From a virus: DNA of 40,150 nucleotides. Shown piece after piece: positions 14 through 36,931 of the stretch. Under the pieces are notes generated by a model, which was given only the letters and a program-made list of their open reading frames with translations, had not been told where the DNA came from and did not search any database. Location of the stretch: the UHGV virus genome UHGV-0075716. One strand, written 5' to 3'. The translations under genes were made by a program, and so were the position numbers. Numbering within the stretch: position 1 is the stretch's first letter; each line of letters begins with the position of its first letter.

Positions 14-1207
14 GTGGATAAAATAATTTTACCCACCGGATTTTTACCCATGCTCACCGTTAAGCAGATTGAAGCAGCAAAGCCGAAAGAAAAACCATAC
101 CGCCTACTCGATGGTAATGGCCTGTACCTTTATGTCCCTGTATCAGGGAAAAAGGTATGGCAGCTTCGCTACAAGATTGACGGTAAGGAGAAAATCCTGA
201 CCGTCGGAAAATATCCACTTATGACTTTGCAGGAGGCAAGAGATAAAGCATGGACCGCGAGGAAAGACATCTCGGTTGGCATCGATCCGGTAAAAGCGAA
301 AAAGGCTTCGTCTAACAACAATTCCTTTAGTGCGATTTACAAGGAATGGTACGAGCACAAGAAGCAAGTCTGGTCAGTAGGCTATGCAACTGAACTTGCA
401 AAAATGTTTGATGACGACATTTTACCTATCATCGGCGGCCTTGAAATTCAGGATATTGAGCCGATGCAACTGCTGGAAGTAATCCGCAGATTTGAAGATC
501 GCGGTGCAATGGAGCGAGCCAACAAAGCCCGCAGAAGATGCGGCGAGGTTTTCCGTTACGCTATTGTCACTGGTAGGGCTAAATATAACCCGGCACCTGA
601 CCTTGCTGACGCCATGAAGGGATACCGCAAGAAGAACTTCCCGTTTCTTCCTGCAGACCAGATCCCTGCATTCAACAAAGCACTGGCAACATTTTCAGGA
701 AGTATCGTATCGCTCATTGCGACCAAAGTTTTACGCTACACAGCCCTAAGAACGAAAGAGCTTCGTTCCATGCTATGGAAGAACGTCGATTTTGAAAACA
801 GGATTATCACCATCGACGCCAGTGTGATGAAGGGACGCAAAATTCATGTGGTCCCGATGTCAGACCAGGTGGTTGAACTTCTCACTACGCTAAGCTCCAT
901 CACCAAACCAGTATCAGAGTTTGTTTTTGCCGGGCGCAACGATAAGAAGAAGCCAATCTGCGAGAACGCGGTTCTACTTGTGATCAAACAAATCGGCTAT
1001 GAGGGTCTAGAAAGCGGTCACGGATTCAGGCATGAATTCAGCACGATTATGAACGAGCACGAATGGCCTGCTGACGCTATTGAAGTGCAACTGGCACATG
1101 CCAACGGCGGATCTGTGCGCGGTATTTACAACCATGCTCAGTATCTCGATAAGCGCAGAGAAATGATGCAGTGGTGGGCGGATTGGCTTGATGAGAAGGT
1201 AGAGTGA
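14..1207 (+). CDS. int: Tyrosine integrase, P4/IntS-like; probable true start ATG at 50 (385 aa)
   Basis: ORF track 397 aa; N-terminus after M at 50 reads MLTVKQIEAAKPKEKPYRLLDGNGLYLYV, typical of the arm-binding domain of P4-family integrases; C-terminal catalytic region with HGFRHEF...RGIYNHAQY motifs. Confidence 0.9.
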   Translation: MDKIILPTGFLPMLTVKQIEAAKPKEKPYRLLDGNGLYLYVPVSGKKVWQLRYKIDGKEKILTVGKYPLMTLQEARDKAWTARKDISVGIDPVKAKKASSNNNSFSAIYKEWYEHKKQVWSVGYATELAKMFDDDILPIIGGLEIQDIEPMQLLEVIRRFEDRGAMERANKARRRCGEVFRYAIVTGRAKYNPAPDLADAMKGYRKKNFPFLPADQIPAFNKALATFSGSIVSLIATKVLRYTALRTKELRSMLWKNVDFENRIITIDASVMKGRKIHVVPMSDQVVELLTTLSSITKPVSEFVFAGRNDKKKPICENAVLLVIKQIGYEGLESGHGFRHEFSTIMNEHEWPADAIEVQLAHANGGSVRGIYNHAQYLDKRREMMQWWADWLDEKVE

Positions 1208-1358
1208 TCCGCCTTAACAACTATCGAAGAGCACAAAGCCTTGTGTGTCTCATAGGCTATGAAACAATCATTTTACATGGTTACTTCACTACTTCCGCAC
1301 AATATGATATCGTTCACAATCTAAAAACATTAATAATTTATCCATTACCGCGGTTAAT

Positions 1359-1385
1359 GCCCGTCGCTTCCAACGGGCTTTTTTG
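1359..1385 (+). terminator. Putative rho-independent terminator downstream of int
   Basis: GCCCGT-loop-ACGGGC hairpin followed by TTTTTTG. Confidence 0.5.
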
Positions 1386-1446
1386 TAAATTATATTTTTA
1401 TTACCTTATATTAATATTGGTAATATGTCTGCATGATGTTTTATAT

Positions 1447-2188
1447 TTATTGCGTGAGCTTCGCATGATAGCTGGAGCATCTCTTGTCATCACTAATTAG
1501 CTCCGCTTTATCCGTTCTTGCCCATATTATATTTCTTTTTATTATTTTTGCTGGATTACCGGCTGCTGCACACATAGATGGCACATCTTTAGTTACAATA
1601 CTCCCATACCCAATGACAGATCCGCTTCCAACAGATACCCCTTTCATTATAGAGACATTTCTCCCTACCCATACGTAACTAGATATAATGATATCTTTTG
1701 CCCAATTAATCCTTTTTTTGCTATGAATATCAAATATAGGATGCCCATCTGATGCACGCAAAATAACATCTCTTGCTATCATGCAGTCATGGCCAATTGT
1801 AACATTGCACTTATCAGTGACGACTTCAAAACCTGCACCTATTGTCGTTCTTCTACCGATAATAACTTTTGAACCTTTTGTTGCGACAATATCACCTTTA
1901 ATCTTACTGTTTTTATGTATTCTTACGTAATTATTATCCCCCCTAAATATTACGGTAAGCCATCGACACTCAACATCATCTTCTATAATAAGTTTGTTAT
2001 TGTTTCCATTGAACTGAACTTTATTCTCTTTGCTATTTACAAGATCTCCACATACAAAAATATTACCTGACCCATTATCATCAATGGAAAACGAGTCTTG
2101 AGTCTTGAGTCTTGAGTCTTGAGTCTTGAGTCTTGAGTCTTGAGTCTTGAGTCTTGAGTCTTGAGTCTTGAGTCTTGAGTCTTGACAT
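1447..2188 (-). CDS. neuO: Hexapeptide-repeat (LbH) O-acetyltransferase, NeuO-like, phase-variable; frame interrupted in this sequence (OFF)
   Basis: ATG at 2188..2186 with AGGA 7 nt upstream is followed at once by 13 heptamers; that frame stops at TGA 2083..2081. The LbH body (IGHDCMIARDV..., VWVGRNVSIMKGVSVGSGSVIGYGSIV) is open from 2094 to 1447 in another frame. 12 or 15 repeats would fuse them (~244 aa). Confidence 0.75.
2094..2184. repeat. 13 perfect tandem copies of heptamer AGTCTTG (AAGACTC on coding strand)
   Basis: Counted directly: 91 bp, 13 x 7, ending 1 nt before the start codon of the acetyltransferase. Confidence 0.97.
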
Positions 2189-2341
2189 GTTAGTATCCTA
2201 CGTTATTTTACCACTAGTTACTTTTCTTGTCATTAAAAAGCATTTAAATTTTTATATTTAATTTCGTTGACGTCAATGTTTTTTGCCAATGTACTTACTT
2301 CTTTATGTGAGCAGTTCATATTTTTGACGCCAACGAAACAT

Positions 2342-5287
2342 TTAGTGCTTCCCTTCTATTAAGTCTAACCTAGCTTTTATTCTTTCTATTTCTCTGCGCT
2401 GCCATGCCGCCTCGATATAGAATAAGAGATCAGGTCTGACCCCCCATCTAGATCCTGCTGGCGTTATTTCAACGCGCTCAATGATGTCTTCTATTACCAT
2501 CACTGGATTATCATCCTCATCAACAATGATGCTCCCGTCATTATCAGTCAGCGGCATTTCCCTTTGGCCAGTAATGACGTCATCATATACTGCGGGATAA
2601 TCGTCATAGCAAAGAAAGGCATAGCGGCATGTTGTGCTTTCTTCTTCCATGAGTCCGTGAGAAATAAGAACATCACGAAGTTGCTGCGCGATTACACCAT
2701 GATGTATCCTCGCCCCTTCTTCCCCCTTTATAGCGACAGCGTTCAGCCATTTATAAGCGATATACCTGACGTCACCCCAGGCATCCAGCAATGCTTCGTC
2801 AGGAGAGACCGGCTCTGTCTTTAATGTTCCGTCACTGGTAACCACAGGATTGGAGCCAAGATAAACTGTCGAGAACCTGTTTCCCGGACCACCAAGAGCA
2901 TTTACATTATCAAGATAAGGTTTAACATCTCCGTTCTCAAAAAGATGTTCGAGTGCGTTATATACCGCGCGACGTGGAGTACTGCTTCCGGAACCATGCA
3001 ACGTTATCATTGCACCATCTGCTGAAGACGTTGTTTCACCGCCGCTAACGATTAATCTCTGAGCGGTAACATCATCAGACGGTACTTTCTTCGCAATAAT
3101 GGCGTAATTACCCTCAAGTTTGACTTCCGCGCGAACTTGTCCTGATGTACCTGCATGGACAGTCAGTGACTGGACGGCAACATCATCTGTGAAATCAACG
3201 GGTACAGGAACCGTCCTCACGCCTGACGTCGACATAAAAGTAGGAAGCGTTCTGTTAGGAGTGGCTCCGTAGACAAAATCCCTTGAAACAAATTCTTCCT
3301 GTTTAATTTTCACCCTGAAACAATACAAATCAGCCGGGTGACCATCGTGAACATAAGGATATTTTCTGTTGTTATCCCCTATGCTCCATGGGTTTAGAAA
3401 ATCTTCCCCACCGAAAATGTAGTACAGCCAGTTGTCTTTGATACAAACTGAACCAACACCAACCGCAGAGTTAACTATTCCGCCCTGATAAATCTGATCA
3501 GTAACATTAACCCACTCTACATTATCCAGACTCCACTCATTGACGTTAACTCTGGTCATAAATGTTCTTGGATAATTTCCTGCATAACGGTTATCAGGTT
3601 CTCCTCCTTCCCACTCACCAAATGCGCGCTCACTGCCAAAAATAACCAGCTCATCGCCAACTTTGGCAAAAGGAAGGTTTGAGTGATGAACATTATTTGG
3701 GAAGCGAAGAGAATTCCATGATGTACCTAAATCAGAGCTTCTGTGCAATGAACTACCGGGTTGAGTACTTAATGTCCCCCTGGTCGTCAGATACAGAATG
3801 CCATCATAATATTTTACACATGGCTCAGATGCATTCGCCTCATATTCTGCAGGTATGCGTCTGCGAACAAAGCTACCAGGAGAACCGAAAGCATCAGAGA
3901 AATAGAGTATCCCAAGCTCGCGTGGACCAATATCACCATTATGGTAGCCAACAGCAAAACTGTTATCGCTAATCGTCGCAAAACTGTGAATCTCAGTAAC
4001 AGGAGTGCTTCCGTCAACAAAAGAAGGAATAGTTCCAAGACTGGTTTTTCTCCATGGTGACGAGTGAAATGATGTGCCAAAACTCCAGTATCTACCCTCG
4101 TTATTCTGATCCACATCCTGGGTATTTTGCGTCGTAACTGTAAAGGTATTTTTATCAATAACAGTAGTCACCGTCATATTCCCGGTAACATCTGTAACAC
4201 CAGAGTTTGAGAAGTTGACAAAATCACCAGCAAATAATCCGTGATCAGTAATGCGAATATAAGCGACTTGCTGATTTGCTGCTTTCGTTATACCACCATA
4301 AACGCGAAGGCTGCGACTCATTGGGCGATCCCACAACTCTGCAACCTGCAGTTTATTTCCTCTCACGGTCCGCGTCTCAATTACAGCAAAAAGGCGATTT
4401 CTGACAACCCCCATACTCATGCAGTGATAGTTAACTGTGGGATAGTTTTCATGTAAATCTGTAAGCCATTCCGGCGTTGTCCAGGTCTTCCCGTCATCTC
4501 CTGAGCGAACCCATGCAACATGGAGGTTATTTACACCATGGCGGTCTCCAGCCATAAAAGGCGCATAGATGACATTGTCATATACAAACGTTTTATCCTG
4601 CGTCCAGGCGTTGTACCACGGTGTATCTGTAATTTTAAATAACTCTCCCTGGATAAAATCTTCAGAAGCATAAAAAAGAGGCTGACCCGGTATTCTCTCA
4701 AATAAAAAACGAGCATTTTTAAATCGACTGACATCTGGAAGAGTTGATACTTTAAAAGTAAGCCCTCGCCCATCTATCTTTTCACCACCTGTTGCAACAG
4801 AAAGTAATTCTGATAGAGCTGATGTATCATCATGAACACCATCACCAATAGCCCCCCAACCTCTTACATCATAACTGTCTCTCCATCTTGCTATCTGAAG
4901 TTTTGGGTATTTATTCGCTCCATCTGGGTCTTCTAATTGCTGCCGTAGTTGATCTGGGTCATACTTCAGCACATTAGGAAAATAGAACTGCTGCGCACCA
5001 TACGCATCATAAACAGCCATAGAATGGCCTTGCACGGTAACGAATTTGGCAATCTGTCCGTTATATACAGGATATCCAGCAGCGTTAATGATGATTGGTT
5101 GAGAAACAGGAACGTGAGAACCGTCTTCGTTCTCCACATAAGCCTGAATCTGGTTTTCAGGATTTACAGGGTCAGTATCAATTTTACCGATATAAATTTT
5201 GCCATTAGCTACGGCTTTAAAAGAACGCGCCATAGTGAAGAGTTGCGAAGGCATCGATACAATCACATTGGCTGTAATGTCTGTCAT
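2342..5287 (-). CDS. Tailspike: P22 gp9-type head-binding N-terminus fused to endosialidase (sialidase beta-propeller) with C-terminal intramolecular chaperone domain
   Basis: N-terminus [11 protein letters not shown]...[14 protein letters not shown]...VLKYDPDQ resembles P22 tailspike head-binding domain; Asp-boxes SGDDGKTW and SSDLGTSW; C-terminal ...VVTSDGTLK...[12 protein letters not shown]... resembles autocleaving chaperone domains. Confidence 0.85.
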
Positions 5288-36465: not shown

Positions 36466-36931
36466 AATTGCCAATGAATACGCAAAGCTGATAGATTCAG
36501 ATTTAGAGCCAGAGATGATTGCTGACACAATAGAAGGCATGGAAGGAGAATTTACCGATAAAATAGAGCAACTTCTTGCCATTATTAAAAATGAATCTGG
36601 TTATGCTGAACGCCTCAAGGAAGAGGCACAGTCACTAAATGAGCGAGCCGCAGTAATTCAAAATAAGATTGACAGCATTATGGCGTATATAGCGTCATCG
36701 CTTGAAATGGTTGGCAAGAAAAAGATTCGAGCAGGTATTCACCAGGTAACAATCCGCAAACCGTCAGAAACTGTAGAAATCATCGACTCAAGCGCCCTTC
36801 CTCCTGAATACGTTGAGTTTGAAACGACAATTAAAGCCGACAAACTGGCAATCAAACACCAACTAAAAGCAGGAATAAATATCCCCGGCGCTCAACTCAA
36901 AGTTGGGAAACCTTCACTTCTTATCAAATAA
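36443..36931 (+). CDS. Recombination-module protein (Gp157/Gam-like, coiled-coil N-terminus); start possibly GTG 36449
   Basis: 162 aa directly after recT; coiled-coil then ...ALPPEYVEF...AIKHQLKAGINIPGAQL pattern. Confidence 0.45.
   Translation: MPVSKLYEIANEYAKLIDSDLEPEMIADTIEGMEGEFTDKIEQLLAIIKNESGYAERLKEEAQSLNERAAVIQNKIDSIMAYIASSLEMVGKKKIRAGIHQVTIRKPSETVEIIDSSALPPEYVEFETTIKADKLAIKHQLKAGINIPGAQLKVGKPSLLIK

What the first reader, a model, noticed from the sequence alone, without database searches (positions are those of the whole stretch)
1208..2341. Low-GC cargo island between integrase and tailspike
This ~1.1-kb segment is visibly AT-rich compared with the flanking int and tailspike genes, and holds only the phase-variable acetyltransferase plus AT-rich intergenic DNA. 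It sits at the site where P22-like phages carry lysogenic-conversion genes such as gtr or oac, consistent with a horizontally acquired moron. Two near-identical motifs, CGTTGACGTCAATG (2266-2279) and TTGACGCCAACG (2324-2335), lie upstream of the gene on its 5' side and may be regulatory.
Basis: seen in the sequence. Interest (0 to 1): 0.45.

Follow-up and report, generated by a model that had tools for sequence, protein, structure and literature searches.

The report
Known neuO cargo gene of CUS-3
The AT-rich stretch is the well-studied neuO gene of the E. coli K1 prophage CUS-3, a repeat-controlled on/off enzyme that acetylates the polysialic acid capsule; here it is switched off, so the finding is correct but already known.

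Summary
Window 1208-2341 has 35.1% GC against 46.8% for the whole window and is the lowest-GC stretch of its size. The only real gene in it has the lowest GC (0.362) and GC3 (0.275) of 40 ORFs.

[quoted passage not shown] It matches CP000711 at 99.4% and is near-identical to the PDB 3JQY protein. It lies on the minus strand (ATG 2188-2186, stop 1449-1447). It carries 13 copies of AAGACTC two bases after the ATG. Thirteen is not a multiple of three, so this copy is phase-OFF and yields a 35-aa peptide.

neuO occupies the tailspike-int slot used by P22 gtrABC and Sf6 oac, but it runs co-directionally with the endosialidase tailspike.

The two motifs are the arms of one 15-nt inverted repeat (14/15). 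It starts 4 nt after the tailspike stop and is kept unchanged in neuO-less relatives, so it belongs to the tailspike 3' flank and is not neuO-specific.

The neuO-less relatives show three different junctions. Two lie at short direct repeats, and one keeps a neuO 3' fragment, which proves deletion. They are most likely losses, not empty sites.

A repeat-less homologue, 87% identical, follows a diverged endosialidase tailspike in an Atlantibacter-like context.

Novelty: already known.

The parts
50..1207 (+). int, tyrosine integrase of the CUS-3/IntS (argW) type. This is context and forms the left border of the segment.
   Evidence: Pfam Phage_integrase, Phage_int_M and Arm-DNA-bind_3. It corresponds to CP000711 int 192-1349. 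The mechanical ORF begins at GTG 14.
1208..1419 (.). AT-rich spacer distal to neuO (GC 0.344). It is retained at about 99% identity in all neuO-less relatives, so it is not part of the variable cargo.
   Evidence: In GPEC172 the similarity starts near window 1228 although int is different.
1359..1386 (+). Intrinsic-terminator-like hairpin GCCCGTCGCTTCCAACGGGC followed by TTTTTT. It faces transcription coming from int.
   Evidence: It is the only terminator-like site in 1100-2500.
1447..2188 (-). neuO, polysialic acid O-acetyltransferase, in the phase-OFF configuration. The ATG is at 2188-2186 and the body frame ends at the stop 1449-1447.
   Evidence: Frame analysis. PDB 3JQY matches at E = 5.7e-161 over 244/244 residues when rebuilt with 12 repeats. 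Pfam Hexapep. 99.4% identical to CUS-3.
2093..2183 (-). Poly-psi VNTR: 13 perfect copies of AAGACTC, starting two bases after the ATG.
   Evidence: TRF reports period 7 with 100% matches. The unit and the rule are from PMC3046976.
2081..2188 (-). The 35-aa truncated product actually encoded from the ATG with 13 repeats: MSRLKTQDS...RLVFH, then a stop.
1439..1449 (.). Left copy of the 11-bp direct repeat TTTTATATTTA. It overlaps the neuO stop codon. The partner copy is at 2250-2260.
   Evidence: These are the only two copies in the window. The type B neuO-less junction is the exact product of recombination between them.
2250..2260 (.). Right copy of the 11-bp direct repeat TTTTATATTTA.
1482..1490 (.). 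Left copy of the 9-bp direct repeat TCTTGTCAT, inside the neuO 3' end. The partner copy is at 2225-2233.
   Evidence: (D9). The type C junction in GPEC172 joins the two copies and keeps neuO codons downstream of 1482.
2225..2233 (.). Right copy of the 9-bp direct repeat TCTTGTCAT. Base 2228 is also the right end of the type A deletion.
2205..2233 (-). Best sigma70-like match upstream of neuO: ATGACA, 17 nt, TAAAAT with an upstream TG. The Shine-Dalgarno AGGA lies at 2199-2196. This is a prediction only.
   Evidence: It scores 10/12. The region has 7 such sites against 4.8 +/- 2.3 in shuffles, so it is not significant.
2262..2338 (-). Inverted repeat with arms 2262-2276 and 2324-2338. It begins 4 nt after the tailspike stop (2344-2342). 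On the mRNA strand it gives a 16-bp stem with a long loop.
   Evidence: I6. Shuffle test. RNA fold of 89 nt gives dG -22.6 kcal/mol, z = -4.76. The 165-nt fold gives z = -3.25. It is present unchanged in neuO-less loci and is >=99% identical in 169 of 176 genomes.
2342..5287 (-). Endosialidase tailspike (siaK1 homologue). This is context and forms the right border of the segment.
   Evidence: Pfam Head_binding, End_N_terminal, End_beta_propel, End_beta_barrel, End_tail_spike and Peptidase_S74. CP000711 annotation.

Best explanation
The segment is the lysogenic-conversion module of a CUS-3-like P22-like prophage of E. coli K1. It holds neuO together with the AT-rich spacers that separate neuO from int and from the endosialidase tailspike gene. 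NeuO is a trimeric left-handed beta-helix, acetyl-CoA-dependent O-acetyltransferase. It acetylates O7/O9 of the sialic acid residues in the polysialic acid capsule. Expression is switched on and off at the level of translation. The tract (AAGACTC)n, which starts two bases after the ATG, changes length by slipped-strand mispairing, and only n divisible by three keeps the ATG in frame with the enzyme body. In this window n = 13. The ATG frame therefore stops after 35 codons, the body frame has no start codon before Met at 1782, and the gene is phase-OFF. When ON, acetylation changes the receptor that endosialidase-bearing K1 phages, including CUS-3 itself, must bind and cut. This is the same logic as P22 gtrABC and Sf6 oac in the same genome slot. 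The following steps are shown here: the gene's identity, the repeat number and frame, the compositional deviation, the genome slot, and the presence/absence polymorphism. The following steps come from the literature: enzyme activity, the ON rule, phage protection and DsdC-dependent transcription. The following steps are inferred: neuO has its own promoter somewhere in the 153-nt spacer. The inverted repeat is the 3' stem-loop of the tailspike/late-operon transcript and not a neuO operator. The gene is lost recurrently by deletion, partly between short direct repeats.
For: Identity. The segment is 99.4-99.7% identical over all 1134 bases to CUS-3 and phiv205-1, and 98.6% over 5.4 kb. CP000711 annotates the neuO poly(psi) repeat at this position. 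The rebuilt protein matches PDB 3JQY NeuO over 244/244 residues with only three differences. It has a Hexapep domain. His147, Trp171, Met134 and Trp220 are present and invariant among its homologues. Switch. There are 13 perfect heptamers and the frames are as described. The ON rule is from PMC3046976 and PMC13001214. In 30 genomes sampled evenly from the ranking, every length difference from the window is a multiple of 7, giving n = 5-53, with 8 of 30 divisible by 3. Foreignness. The segment has the lowest GC and the gene the lowest GC3 in the window. The homologue is also a GC trough in a different, higher-GC context. Slot. In Sf6 the order is tailspike-oac-int-attP, and in P22 it is gene 9-gtrCBA-attP-int. 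Function and regulation. NeuO protects against K1 phage, and neuO transcript falls more than 7-fold without DsdC (PMC9659370; PMC13001214). Inverted repeat. It is statistically non-random and folds stably. It starts 4 nt after the tailspike stop, where P22, Sf6 and L010 also have a hairpin. It is retained in neuO-less loci. Loss. There are three distinct junctions, in 18 of 5426 genomes against 158 with the full region.
Against: Nothing argues against the identity of the gene. The weak points are all in the inferred steps. No promoter is established: the promoter-like hits are no more frequent than in shuffled sequence, and the best one would start transcription on top of the Shine-Dalgarno sequence. 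The inverted repeat is not a canonical intrinsic terminator, because it has a 47-nt loop and no U-run after the stem. It is also invariant, so no covariation test is possible. Its left arm carries TTGACG, which is a -35-like hexamer for a second promoter-like match, so a role in neuO transcription cannot be excluded. For junction types A and B the direction of change (loss or gain) is inferred, not proven.
Confidence: 0.93

Rival explanations
1. The two TTGACG-containing motifs are neuO-specific regulatory sites. They could be operators for a dimeric regulator (TTGACGTCAA is itself a perfect 10-bp palindrome) or the -35 element of the neuO promoter.
For: The motifs lie 77-150 nt upstream of the neuO ATG. 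TTGACG at 2276-2271 is the -35 part of a 9/12 promoter-like match that would give a leader of about 53 nt. DsdC binds the neuO 'promoter region' in vitro, though only weakly in vivo (PMC9659370).
Against: The whole repeat is kept, >=99% identical, in prophages that have no neuO. The two copies are in inverted orientation and pair over 14 of 15 positions, extending beyond the palindrome core. They sit 4 nt after the tailspike stop, where related phages have a hairpin. The repeat-less neuO homologue in L010 has a different upstream region with its own TTGACT-17-TAGAAT and none of these motifs. The main DsdC peaks in vivo lie within and downstream of the coding sequence, not here.
Confidence: 0.2
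2. The neuO-less CUS-3-like prophages are ancestral empty sites, and neuO is a recent insertion of about 0.8 kb into them.
For: Type A loci (720R6, TUM11352) join window 1419 directly to 2228 with no leftover neuO sequence. The type B junction could be read as a target with an 11-bp duplication flanking an 800-bp insert.
Against: Types A and B each retain a piece that the other lacks (A keeps 2228-2249, B keeps 1420-1438). At most one can therefore be ancestral, and at least one loss is required. Type C keeps a neuO 3' coding fragment and is unambiguously a deletion. A tailspike only 63% identical already has a neuO homologue directly downstream, so the linkage is far older than the ~99%-identical neuO-less modules.
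Confidence: 0.1
3. The low GC reflects only local constraints, namely AT-rich intergenic DNA and the amino-acid composition of a beta-helix enzyme, and not foreign origin.
For: The most AT-rich pieces are the non-coding flanks (0.281-0.344), which are not part of the variable cargo. NeuO is rich in Ile, Asn and Lys.
Against: GC3, which is largely free of amino-acid constraint, is 0.275. This is the lowest of 40 ORFs, below the next lowest at 0.319. The homologue remains a GC trough (0.34-0.41) in DNA of 0.5-0.6 GC. The gene is present or absent among otherwise ~99%-identical modules.
Confidence: 0.05

Closest known systems
neuO of Enterobacteria phage CUS-3 (CP000711; Deszo et al. 2005 and King et al. 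2007, as cited in PMC3046976 and PMC9659370)
   Same: Same gene, same neighbours (int on one side, endosialidase tailspike on the other) and same heptanucleotide unit at the same position. DNA identity is 99.4%.
   Different: Only the repeat number differs (13 here, 19 in CP000711; both are OFF), plus a few point differences.
NeuO crystal structure 3JQY, and OatWY of Neisseria meningitidis W/Y (2WLC)
   Same: The protein is a left-handed beta-helix acetyltransferase. It differs from the 3JQY protein at only three positions (S2L, I33V, I41V). The match to OatWY has E = 4e-31. The catalytic His and Trp are conserved.
   Different: OatWY has no N-terminal heptad extension and is not phage-borne.
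Sf6 oac and P22 gtrABC lysogenic-conversion modules
   Same: They occupy the same slot, directly after the tailspike gene and before int. They follow the same logic of modifying the polysaccharide that the phage's own tailspike recognises. In Sf6, as in CUS-3, attP lies beyond int, so int, cargo and tailspike stay contiguous in the prophage.
   Different: oac and gtrABC are transcribed convergently with the tailspike, whereas neuO runs co-directionally downstream of it. The enzymes are unrelated (membrane acyltransferase, glucosyltransferases). Neither record annotates a repeat-based switch.
Simple-sequence contingency loci switched by slipped-strand mispairing within a coding region
   Same: The repeat unit is not a multiple of three and sits inside the 5' coding region. 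The repeat number varies between strains in whole units. About one third of alleles are in frame (34.4% ON in PMC13001214).
   Different: The in-frame repeats are translated into RLKTQDS heptads that raise catalytic efficiency (PMC3046976). Repeat number therefore tunes activity as well as switching it.

Membership tests
NeuO (polysialic acid O-acetyltransferase, LbetaH family) | Hexapeptide-repeat left-handed beta-helix domain | tested here: met
   Pfam PF00132 Hexapep, E = 3.9e-11, above the cut-off.
NeuO (polysialic acid O-acetyltransferase, LbetaH family) | Full-length near-identity to the experimentally characterised NeuO | tested here: met
   3JQY matches at E = 5.7e-161 over 244/244 residues with three substitutions (S2L, I33V, I41V).
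NeuO (polysialic acid O-acetyltransferase, LbetaH family) | Catalytic His147 and Trp171, plus Met134 and Trp220 (numbering of NeuO+12) | tested here: met
   The residues are named in PMC3046976. They are identical in the alignment to 3JQY. They are invariant as H117, W141, M104 and W190 of the body numbering in five homologues.
NeuO (polysialic acid O-acetyltransferase, LbetaH family) | Acetyl-CoA-dependent O-acetylation of alpha-2,8 polysialic acid | not testable with these tools
   Biochemistry exists only in the literature.
Slipped-strand contingency locus (translational phase variation) | Perfect tandem repeat, unit not divisible by three, inside the 5' coding region | tested here: met
   13 x AAGACTC at 2183-2093, two bases after the ATG.
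Slipped-strand contingency locus (translational phase variation) | Repeat number varies among strains in whole units, with both ON and OFF alleles present | tested here: met
   All 30 sampled genomes differ from the window by multiples of 7 bp, giving n = 5-53, with 8 of 30 divisible by 3. CUS-3 has 19 repeats and phiv205-1 has 18.
Slipped-strand contingency locus (translational phase variation) | High-frequency reversible switching within a clone | not testable with these tools
   Reported by fragment analysis in PMC13001214.
Phage moron / lysogenic-conversion module of P22-like phages | Lies between the tailspike gene and int | tested here: met
   with the Sf6 and P22 records.
Phage moron / lysogenic-conversion module of P22-like phages | Base composition and codon usage deviate from the rest of the phage | tested here: met
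Phage moron / lysogenic-conversion module of P22-like phages | Present or absent among otherwise near-identical phages | tested here: met
   18 neuO-less against 158 neuO-bearing genomes, with ~99%-identical flanks.
Phage moron / lysogenic-conversion module of P22-like phages | Own promoter and terminator allowing expression from the repressed prophage | tested here: inconclusive
   There are promoter-like matches, but no more than in shuffled sequence, and there is no minus-strand terminator downstream of neuO. Expression in lysogens is documented by qRT-PCR in PMC9659370.
Intrinsic (Rho-independent) terminator, considered for the inverted repeat 2262-2338 | Short G+C-rich hairpin with a small loop, followed directly by a U-run | tested here: not met
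   The scan reports no minus-strand terminator. The stem has 16 bp, but the loop is about 47 nt and the stem is followed by AUUAAAU.

The most novel reading that the evidence does not exclude
Pairing an endosialidase tailspike with a downstream neuO-type acetyltransferase may be an old, co-inherited receptor-modifying module that extends beyond E. coli K1. A repeat-less copy, 87% identical at the protein level, follows a tailspike only 63% identical on a metagenomic contig. The same gene sits beside a degraded tailspike end in an Atlantibacter MAG. On this reading the AAGACTC contingency repeat is a later, E. coli-specific addition. The module is then repeatedly and irreversibly lost through deletions, two of the three at short direct repeats that bracket the gene. 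This would be a second, permanent OFF route alongside the reversible one. It would also imply a polysialic-acid-like capsule in Atlantibacter.
Probability: 0.4. Interest if true: 0.35.

Novelty: already known. Interest (0 to 1): 0.12.

Why it matters
neuO is a textbook mobile contingency locus. It controls O-acetylation of the K1 capsule, and thereby affects phage resistance, neutrophil killing, serum sensitivity and immune recognition in neonatal-meningitis and ST95 uropathogenic E. coli (PMC13001214, PMC9659370, PMC8653822). Recognising it here is correct annotation, not a discovery. The modest additions concern its evolution and regulation. The GC trough is wider than the variable cargo. 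The upstream inverted repeat belongs to the tailspike flank. neuO-less relatives arose by at least three separate deletions. A repeat-less homologue exists next to a diverged endosialidase tailspike. The promoter is still not defined in the papers I could read.

Tried and rejected
- **Rfam, 1100-2500, permissive threshold.** Only a chance-level hit over the int-side terminator hairpin (E = 0.76, 16 bits against a 49.5-bit cut-off).
- **tRNA or att remnant in the window.** None found.
- **The + strand ORF 1204-1500 (98 aa), annotated 'hypothetical protein' in 720R6.** No PHROG family. I treat it as spurious.
- **The inverted repeat as the ends of a small multicopy element.** Rejected. The flank occurs once per prophage in 176 genomes (184 places in all) and in only three phage records.
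- **Covariation test of the hairpin.** Impossible. The flank is >=99% identical in 169 of 176 genomes.
- **Megablast with the type A junction.** No match, probably because of the low-complexity filter on very AT-rich DNA. Type A genomes were instead counted from the type B query, where they appear as 88%-identical hits.
- **The primary papers (Deszo 2005, King 2007).** Not held in the library. Their content is cited only through later open-access papers.
- **Distant DNA search of the int-side spacer.** Nothing beyond CUS-3-like phages and short int-proximal matches.
- **Other phages carrying NeuO homologues.** Only CUS-3-like records, plus one Enterococcus phage protein at 35% identity.

Full report
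**1. The observation**

The segment 1208-2341 runs from the base after the int stop codon to the base before the tailspike stop codon.
- Its GC is 0.351. The whole window is 0.468, int is 0.474 and the tailspike is 0.440.
- Only 0.26% of all 1134-bp windows are as low. All of those overlap this site, and the window-wide minimum starts at 1261.
- The coding body of the one gene inside has GC 0.362 and GC3 0.275. Both are the lowest of 40 non-overlapping ORFs of at least ~100 aa.
- The other ORFs average GC 0.473 +/- 0.036 and GC3 0.468 +/- 0.071, and their lowest GC3 is 0.319.

**2. What the gene is**

On the minus strand an ATG at 2188-2186 is followed by TC and then by 13 perfect copies of AAGACTC at 2183-2093.
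- The ATG frame reads MSRLKTQDS...RLVFH and stops at 2083-2081 after 35 codons.
- A different frame carries a 214-residue body down to the stop at 1449-1447.
- Rebuilt with 12 repeats, the protein aligns over all 244 residues with PDB 3JQY, 'polysialic acid O-acetyltransferase' (E = 5.7e-161). There are three substitutions: S2L, I33V and I41V.
- It has a Hexapep domain.
- The catalytic residues named by Schulz et al. (His147, Trp171, Met134, Trp220) are present and are invariant in its nearest homologues.

At the DNA level the segment is 99.4% identical to phage CUS-3 (CP000711). That record annotates the neuO 'poly(psi) domain' with 19 copies of AAGACTC between int and the endosialidase tailspike siaK1. 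Over 5.4 kb the window is 98.6% identical to CUS-3. The neighbouring genes are a tyrosine integrase and an endosialidase tailspike with a P22 head-binding domain.

**3. How it works**

The published rule is that the repeat starts two nucleotides after the start codon. Its length changes by strand slippage. Only copy numbers divisible by three give full-length, active NeuO. Each three copies encode one RLKTQDS heptad, and these heptads raise catalytic efficiency (PMC3046976; PMC13001214).

With 13 copies this window's allele is phase-OFF. The body frame has no start codon across the repeats, and its first Met is at 1782, which would remove most of the beta-helix.

Variation among strains fits the mechanism.
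- I took 30 full-length matches sampled evenly from 158 E. coli genomes.
- Every length difference from the window is a multiple of 7 bp.
- This gives 5 to 53 copies, and 8 of the 30 are divisible by three.
- A published survey found 34.4% of alleles ON, in line with this.

According to the literature, NeuO-mediated acetylation protects against K1-specific phage. neuO transcription depends more than seven-fold on the LysR-type regulator DsdC. DsdC binds mainly within and just downstream of the coding sequence and only weakly in the promoter region (PMC9659370).

**4. The slot**

- In Sf6 the order is tailspike (+), oac (-), int (-), attP.
- In P22 the order is gene 9 (+), gtrC-B-A (-), attP, int (-).

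Two details differ.
- As in Sf6, the CUS-3 attachment core lies beyond int. Int, cargo and tailspike therefore stay contiguous in the prophage.
- neuO is co-directional with the tailspike and lies downstream of it, whereas oac and gtr are convergent with it.

**5. Where the cargo ends**

Relatives without neuO exist, and they show three different junctions.
- **Type A** (phage vB_EcoP-720R6 and strain TUM11352, at the lambda attachment site next to bio-ybhB). Window 1419 is joined directly to 2228, with no shared bases at the junction.
- **Type B** (isolate AF14, next to torT). This is the exact product of recombination between two copies of TTTTATATTTA at 1439-1449 and 2250-2260. These are the only two copies in the 40-kb window.
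- **Type C** (strain GPEC172). This joins two copies of TCTTGTCAT at 1482-1490 and 2225-2233, so it still carries the last codons of neuO. It is unambiguously a deletion.

Types A and B each keep a short piece that the other lacks. At most one of them could therefore be ancestral.

Counts agree between searches. In 5426 complete E. coli genomes, 158 carry the full region and 18 carry a neuO-less junction: 12 of type B, 5 of type A and 1 of type C. Their sum is the 176 genomes that have the tailspike-side flank.

The flanks 1208-1419 (GC 0.344) and 2228-2341 (GC 0.281) are kept in all of these. The GC trough is therefore wider than the variable cargo, which is roughly 1420-2260.

**6. The two motifs**

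The first motif is at 2265-2278, one base off the stated position. The second is at 2324-2335 as stated. They are best described as the arms of one inverted repeat, TTTCGTTGACGTCAA (2262-2276) and TTGACGCCAACGAAA (2324-2338). The arms are 14/15 complementary and 47 nt apart.
- No shuffle reached this quality: 0 of 500 for the 153-nt spacer and 0 of 100 for the whole segment.
- On the transcribed strand the repeat forms a 16-bp stem with dG -22.6 kcal/mol and z = -4.76. The 165-nt context gives z = -3.25.
- It starts 4 nt after the tailspike stop. P22, Sf6 and the metagenomic relative L010 each have a hairpin at the equivalent place.
- It is retained unchanged in neuO-less loci.

I therefore assign it to the 3' end of the tailspike/late transcript and not to neuO. 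It is not a canonical intrinsic terminator, because the loop is long and no U-run follows the stem. Its sequence is invariant, so covariation cannot be tested.

A role in neuO transcription is not excluded. The left arm provides TTGACG as the -35 part of a 9/12 promoter-like match. The best match (ATGACA-17-TAAAAT with TG, 2233-2205) lies closer to the gene. However, such matches are no more frequent here than in shuffled sequence (7 against 4.8 +/- 2.3). The best one would also start transcription on the Shine-Dalgarno sequence. The promoter is unresolved.

**7. Origin**

Among 50,697 phage records only CUS-3-like phages carry this gene; the next hit is a 35%-identical Enterococcus phage protein.

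In the large protein collection the nearest non-E. coli relative is 87% identical and has no heptad extension.
- Its contig has an endosialidase tailspike 63% identical to the window's.
- After the tailspike stop there is a 12-bp hairpin, then a TTGACT-17-TAGAAT promoter-like site.
- The acetyltransferase gene follows in the same direction, and umuDC follows that.

The same gene (86% identical) sits beside a degraded tailspike 3' end in an Atlantibacter MAG. Neither locus contains tandem AAGACTC. In both loci the gene is a GC trough (0.34-0.41) within DNA of 0.5-0.6 GC.

This supports three points:
- The gene is compositionally foreign wherever it is found.
- Its linkage to an endosialidase tailspike predates the CUS-3 lineage.
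- The repeat was added later. This last point is inference from two loci.

**8. Verdict**

The feature is the already well-characterised neuO contingency locus of CUS-3, here in the OFF phase. Interest is low. The small additions are the deletion junctions, the assignment of the inverted repeat to the tailspike flank, and the repeat-less homologue.

Noticed in passing
L010 1-3204 (JGI metagenome contig) and L012 5500-6650 (Atlantibacter sp. MAG): A NeuO homologue, 86-87% identical and without the AAGACTC repeat, lies directly downstream of and co-directional with an endosialidase tailspike that is 63% identical to the window's. In the Atlantibacter MAG only the tailspike 3' end remains. The gene is a GC trough in both loci.
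   Followed up: partly
L002 3917-4345, L005 5917-6345, L004 5917-6342, L007 1330-1720: There are three different neuO-less junctions in CUS-3-like tailspike modules. Two lie at short direct repeats (11 bp and 9 bp) that bracket neuO in the window. Eighteen of 5426 complete E. coli genomes carry one of the three.
   Followed up: yes
L002 3600-4000, L005 5600-6000, L004 5634-6000: The CUS-3-type tailspike module also occurs in prophages at the lambda attachment site (bio-ybhB) and next to torT. Each keeps an 84-nt remnant of the CUS-3-type int 3' end (window 1124-1207). This suggests the integration module was swapped by recombination inside int.
   Followed up: partly
L006 5241-6274 (E. coli AR_0013, argW site): Here neuO is truncated to its 3' 243 nt by an IS629-family insertion, and a group II intron lies nearby. 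This is another route of neuO loss.
   Followed up: no
L003 2642-3418 (phage phiv205-1, MN340231): In this record neuO, with 18 repeats and so in frame, is annotated as 'general stress protein', and the endosialidase as 'tail fiber protein'. RefSeq genomes call neuO only 'acyltransferase'. The annotation does not reflect the known function.
   Followed up: no
window 14-50: The mechanical int ORF starts at GTG 14. The CUS-3 annotation (1158 nt) corresponds to the ATG at 50.
   Followed up: partly
window 34559-34927 (+) and 36443-36931 (+): These are the next lowest-GC ORFs in the window (GC 0.382 and 0.409, GC3 about 0.36). They may be further accessory genes in the early region.
   Followed up: no
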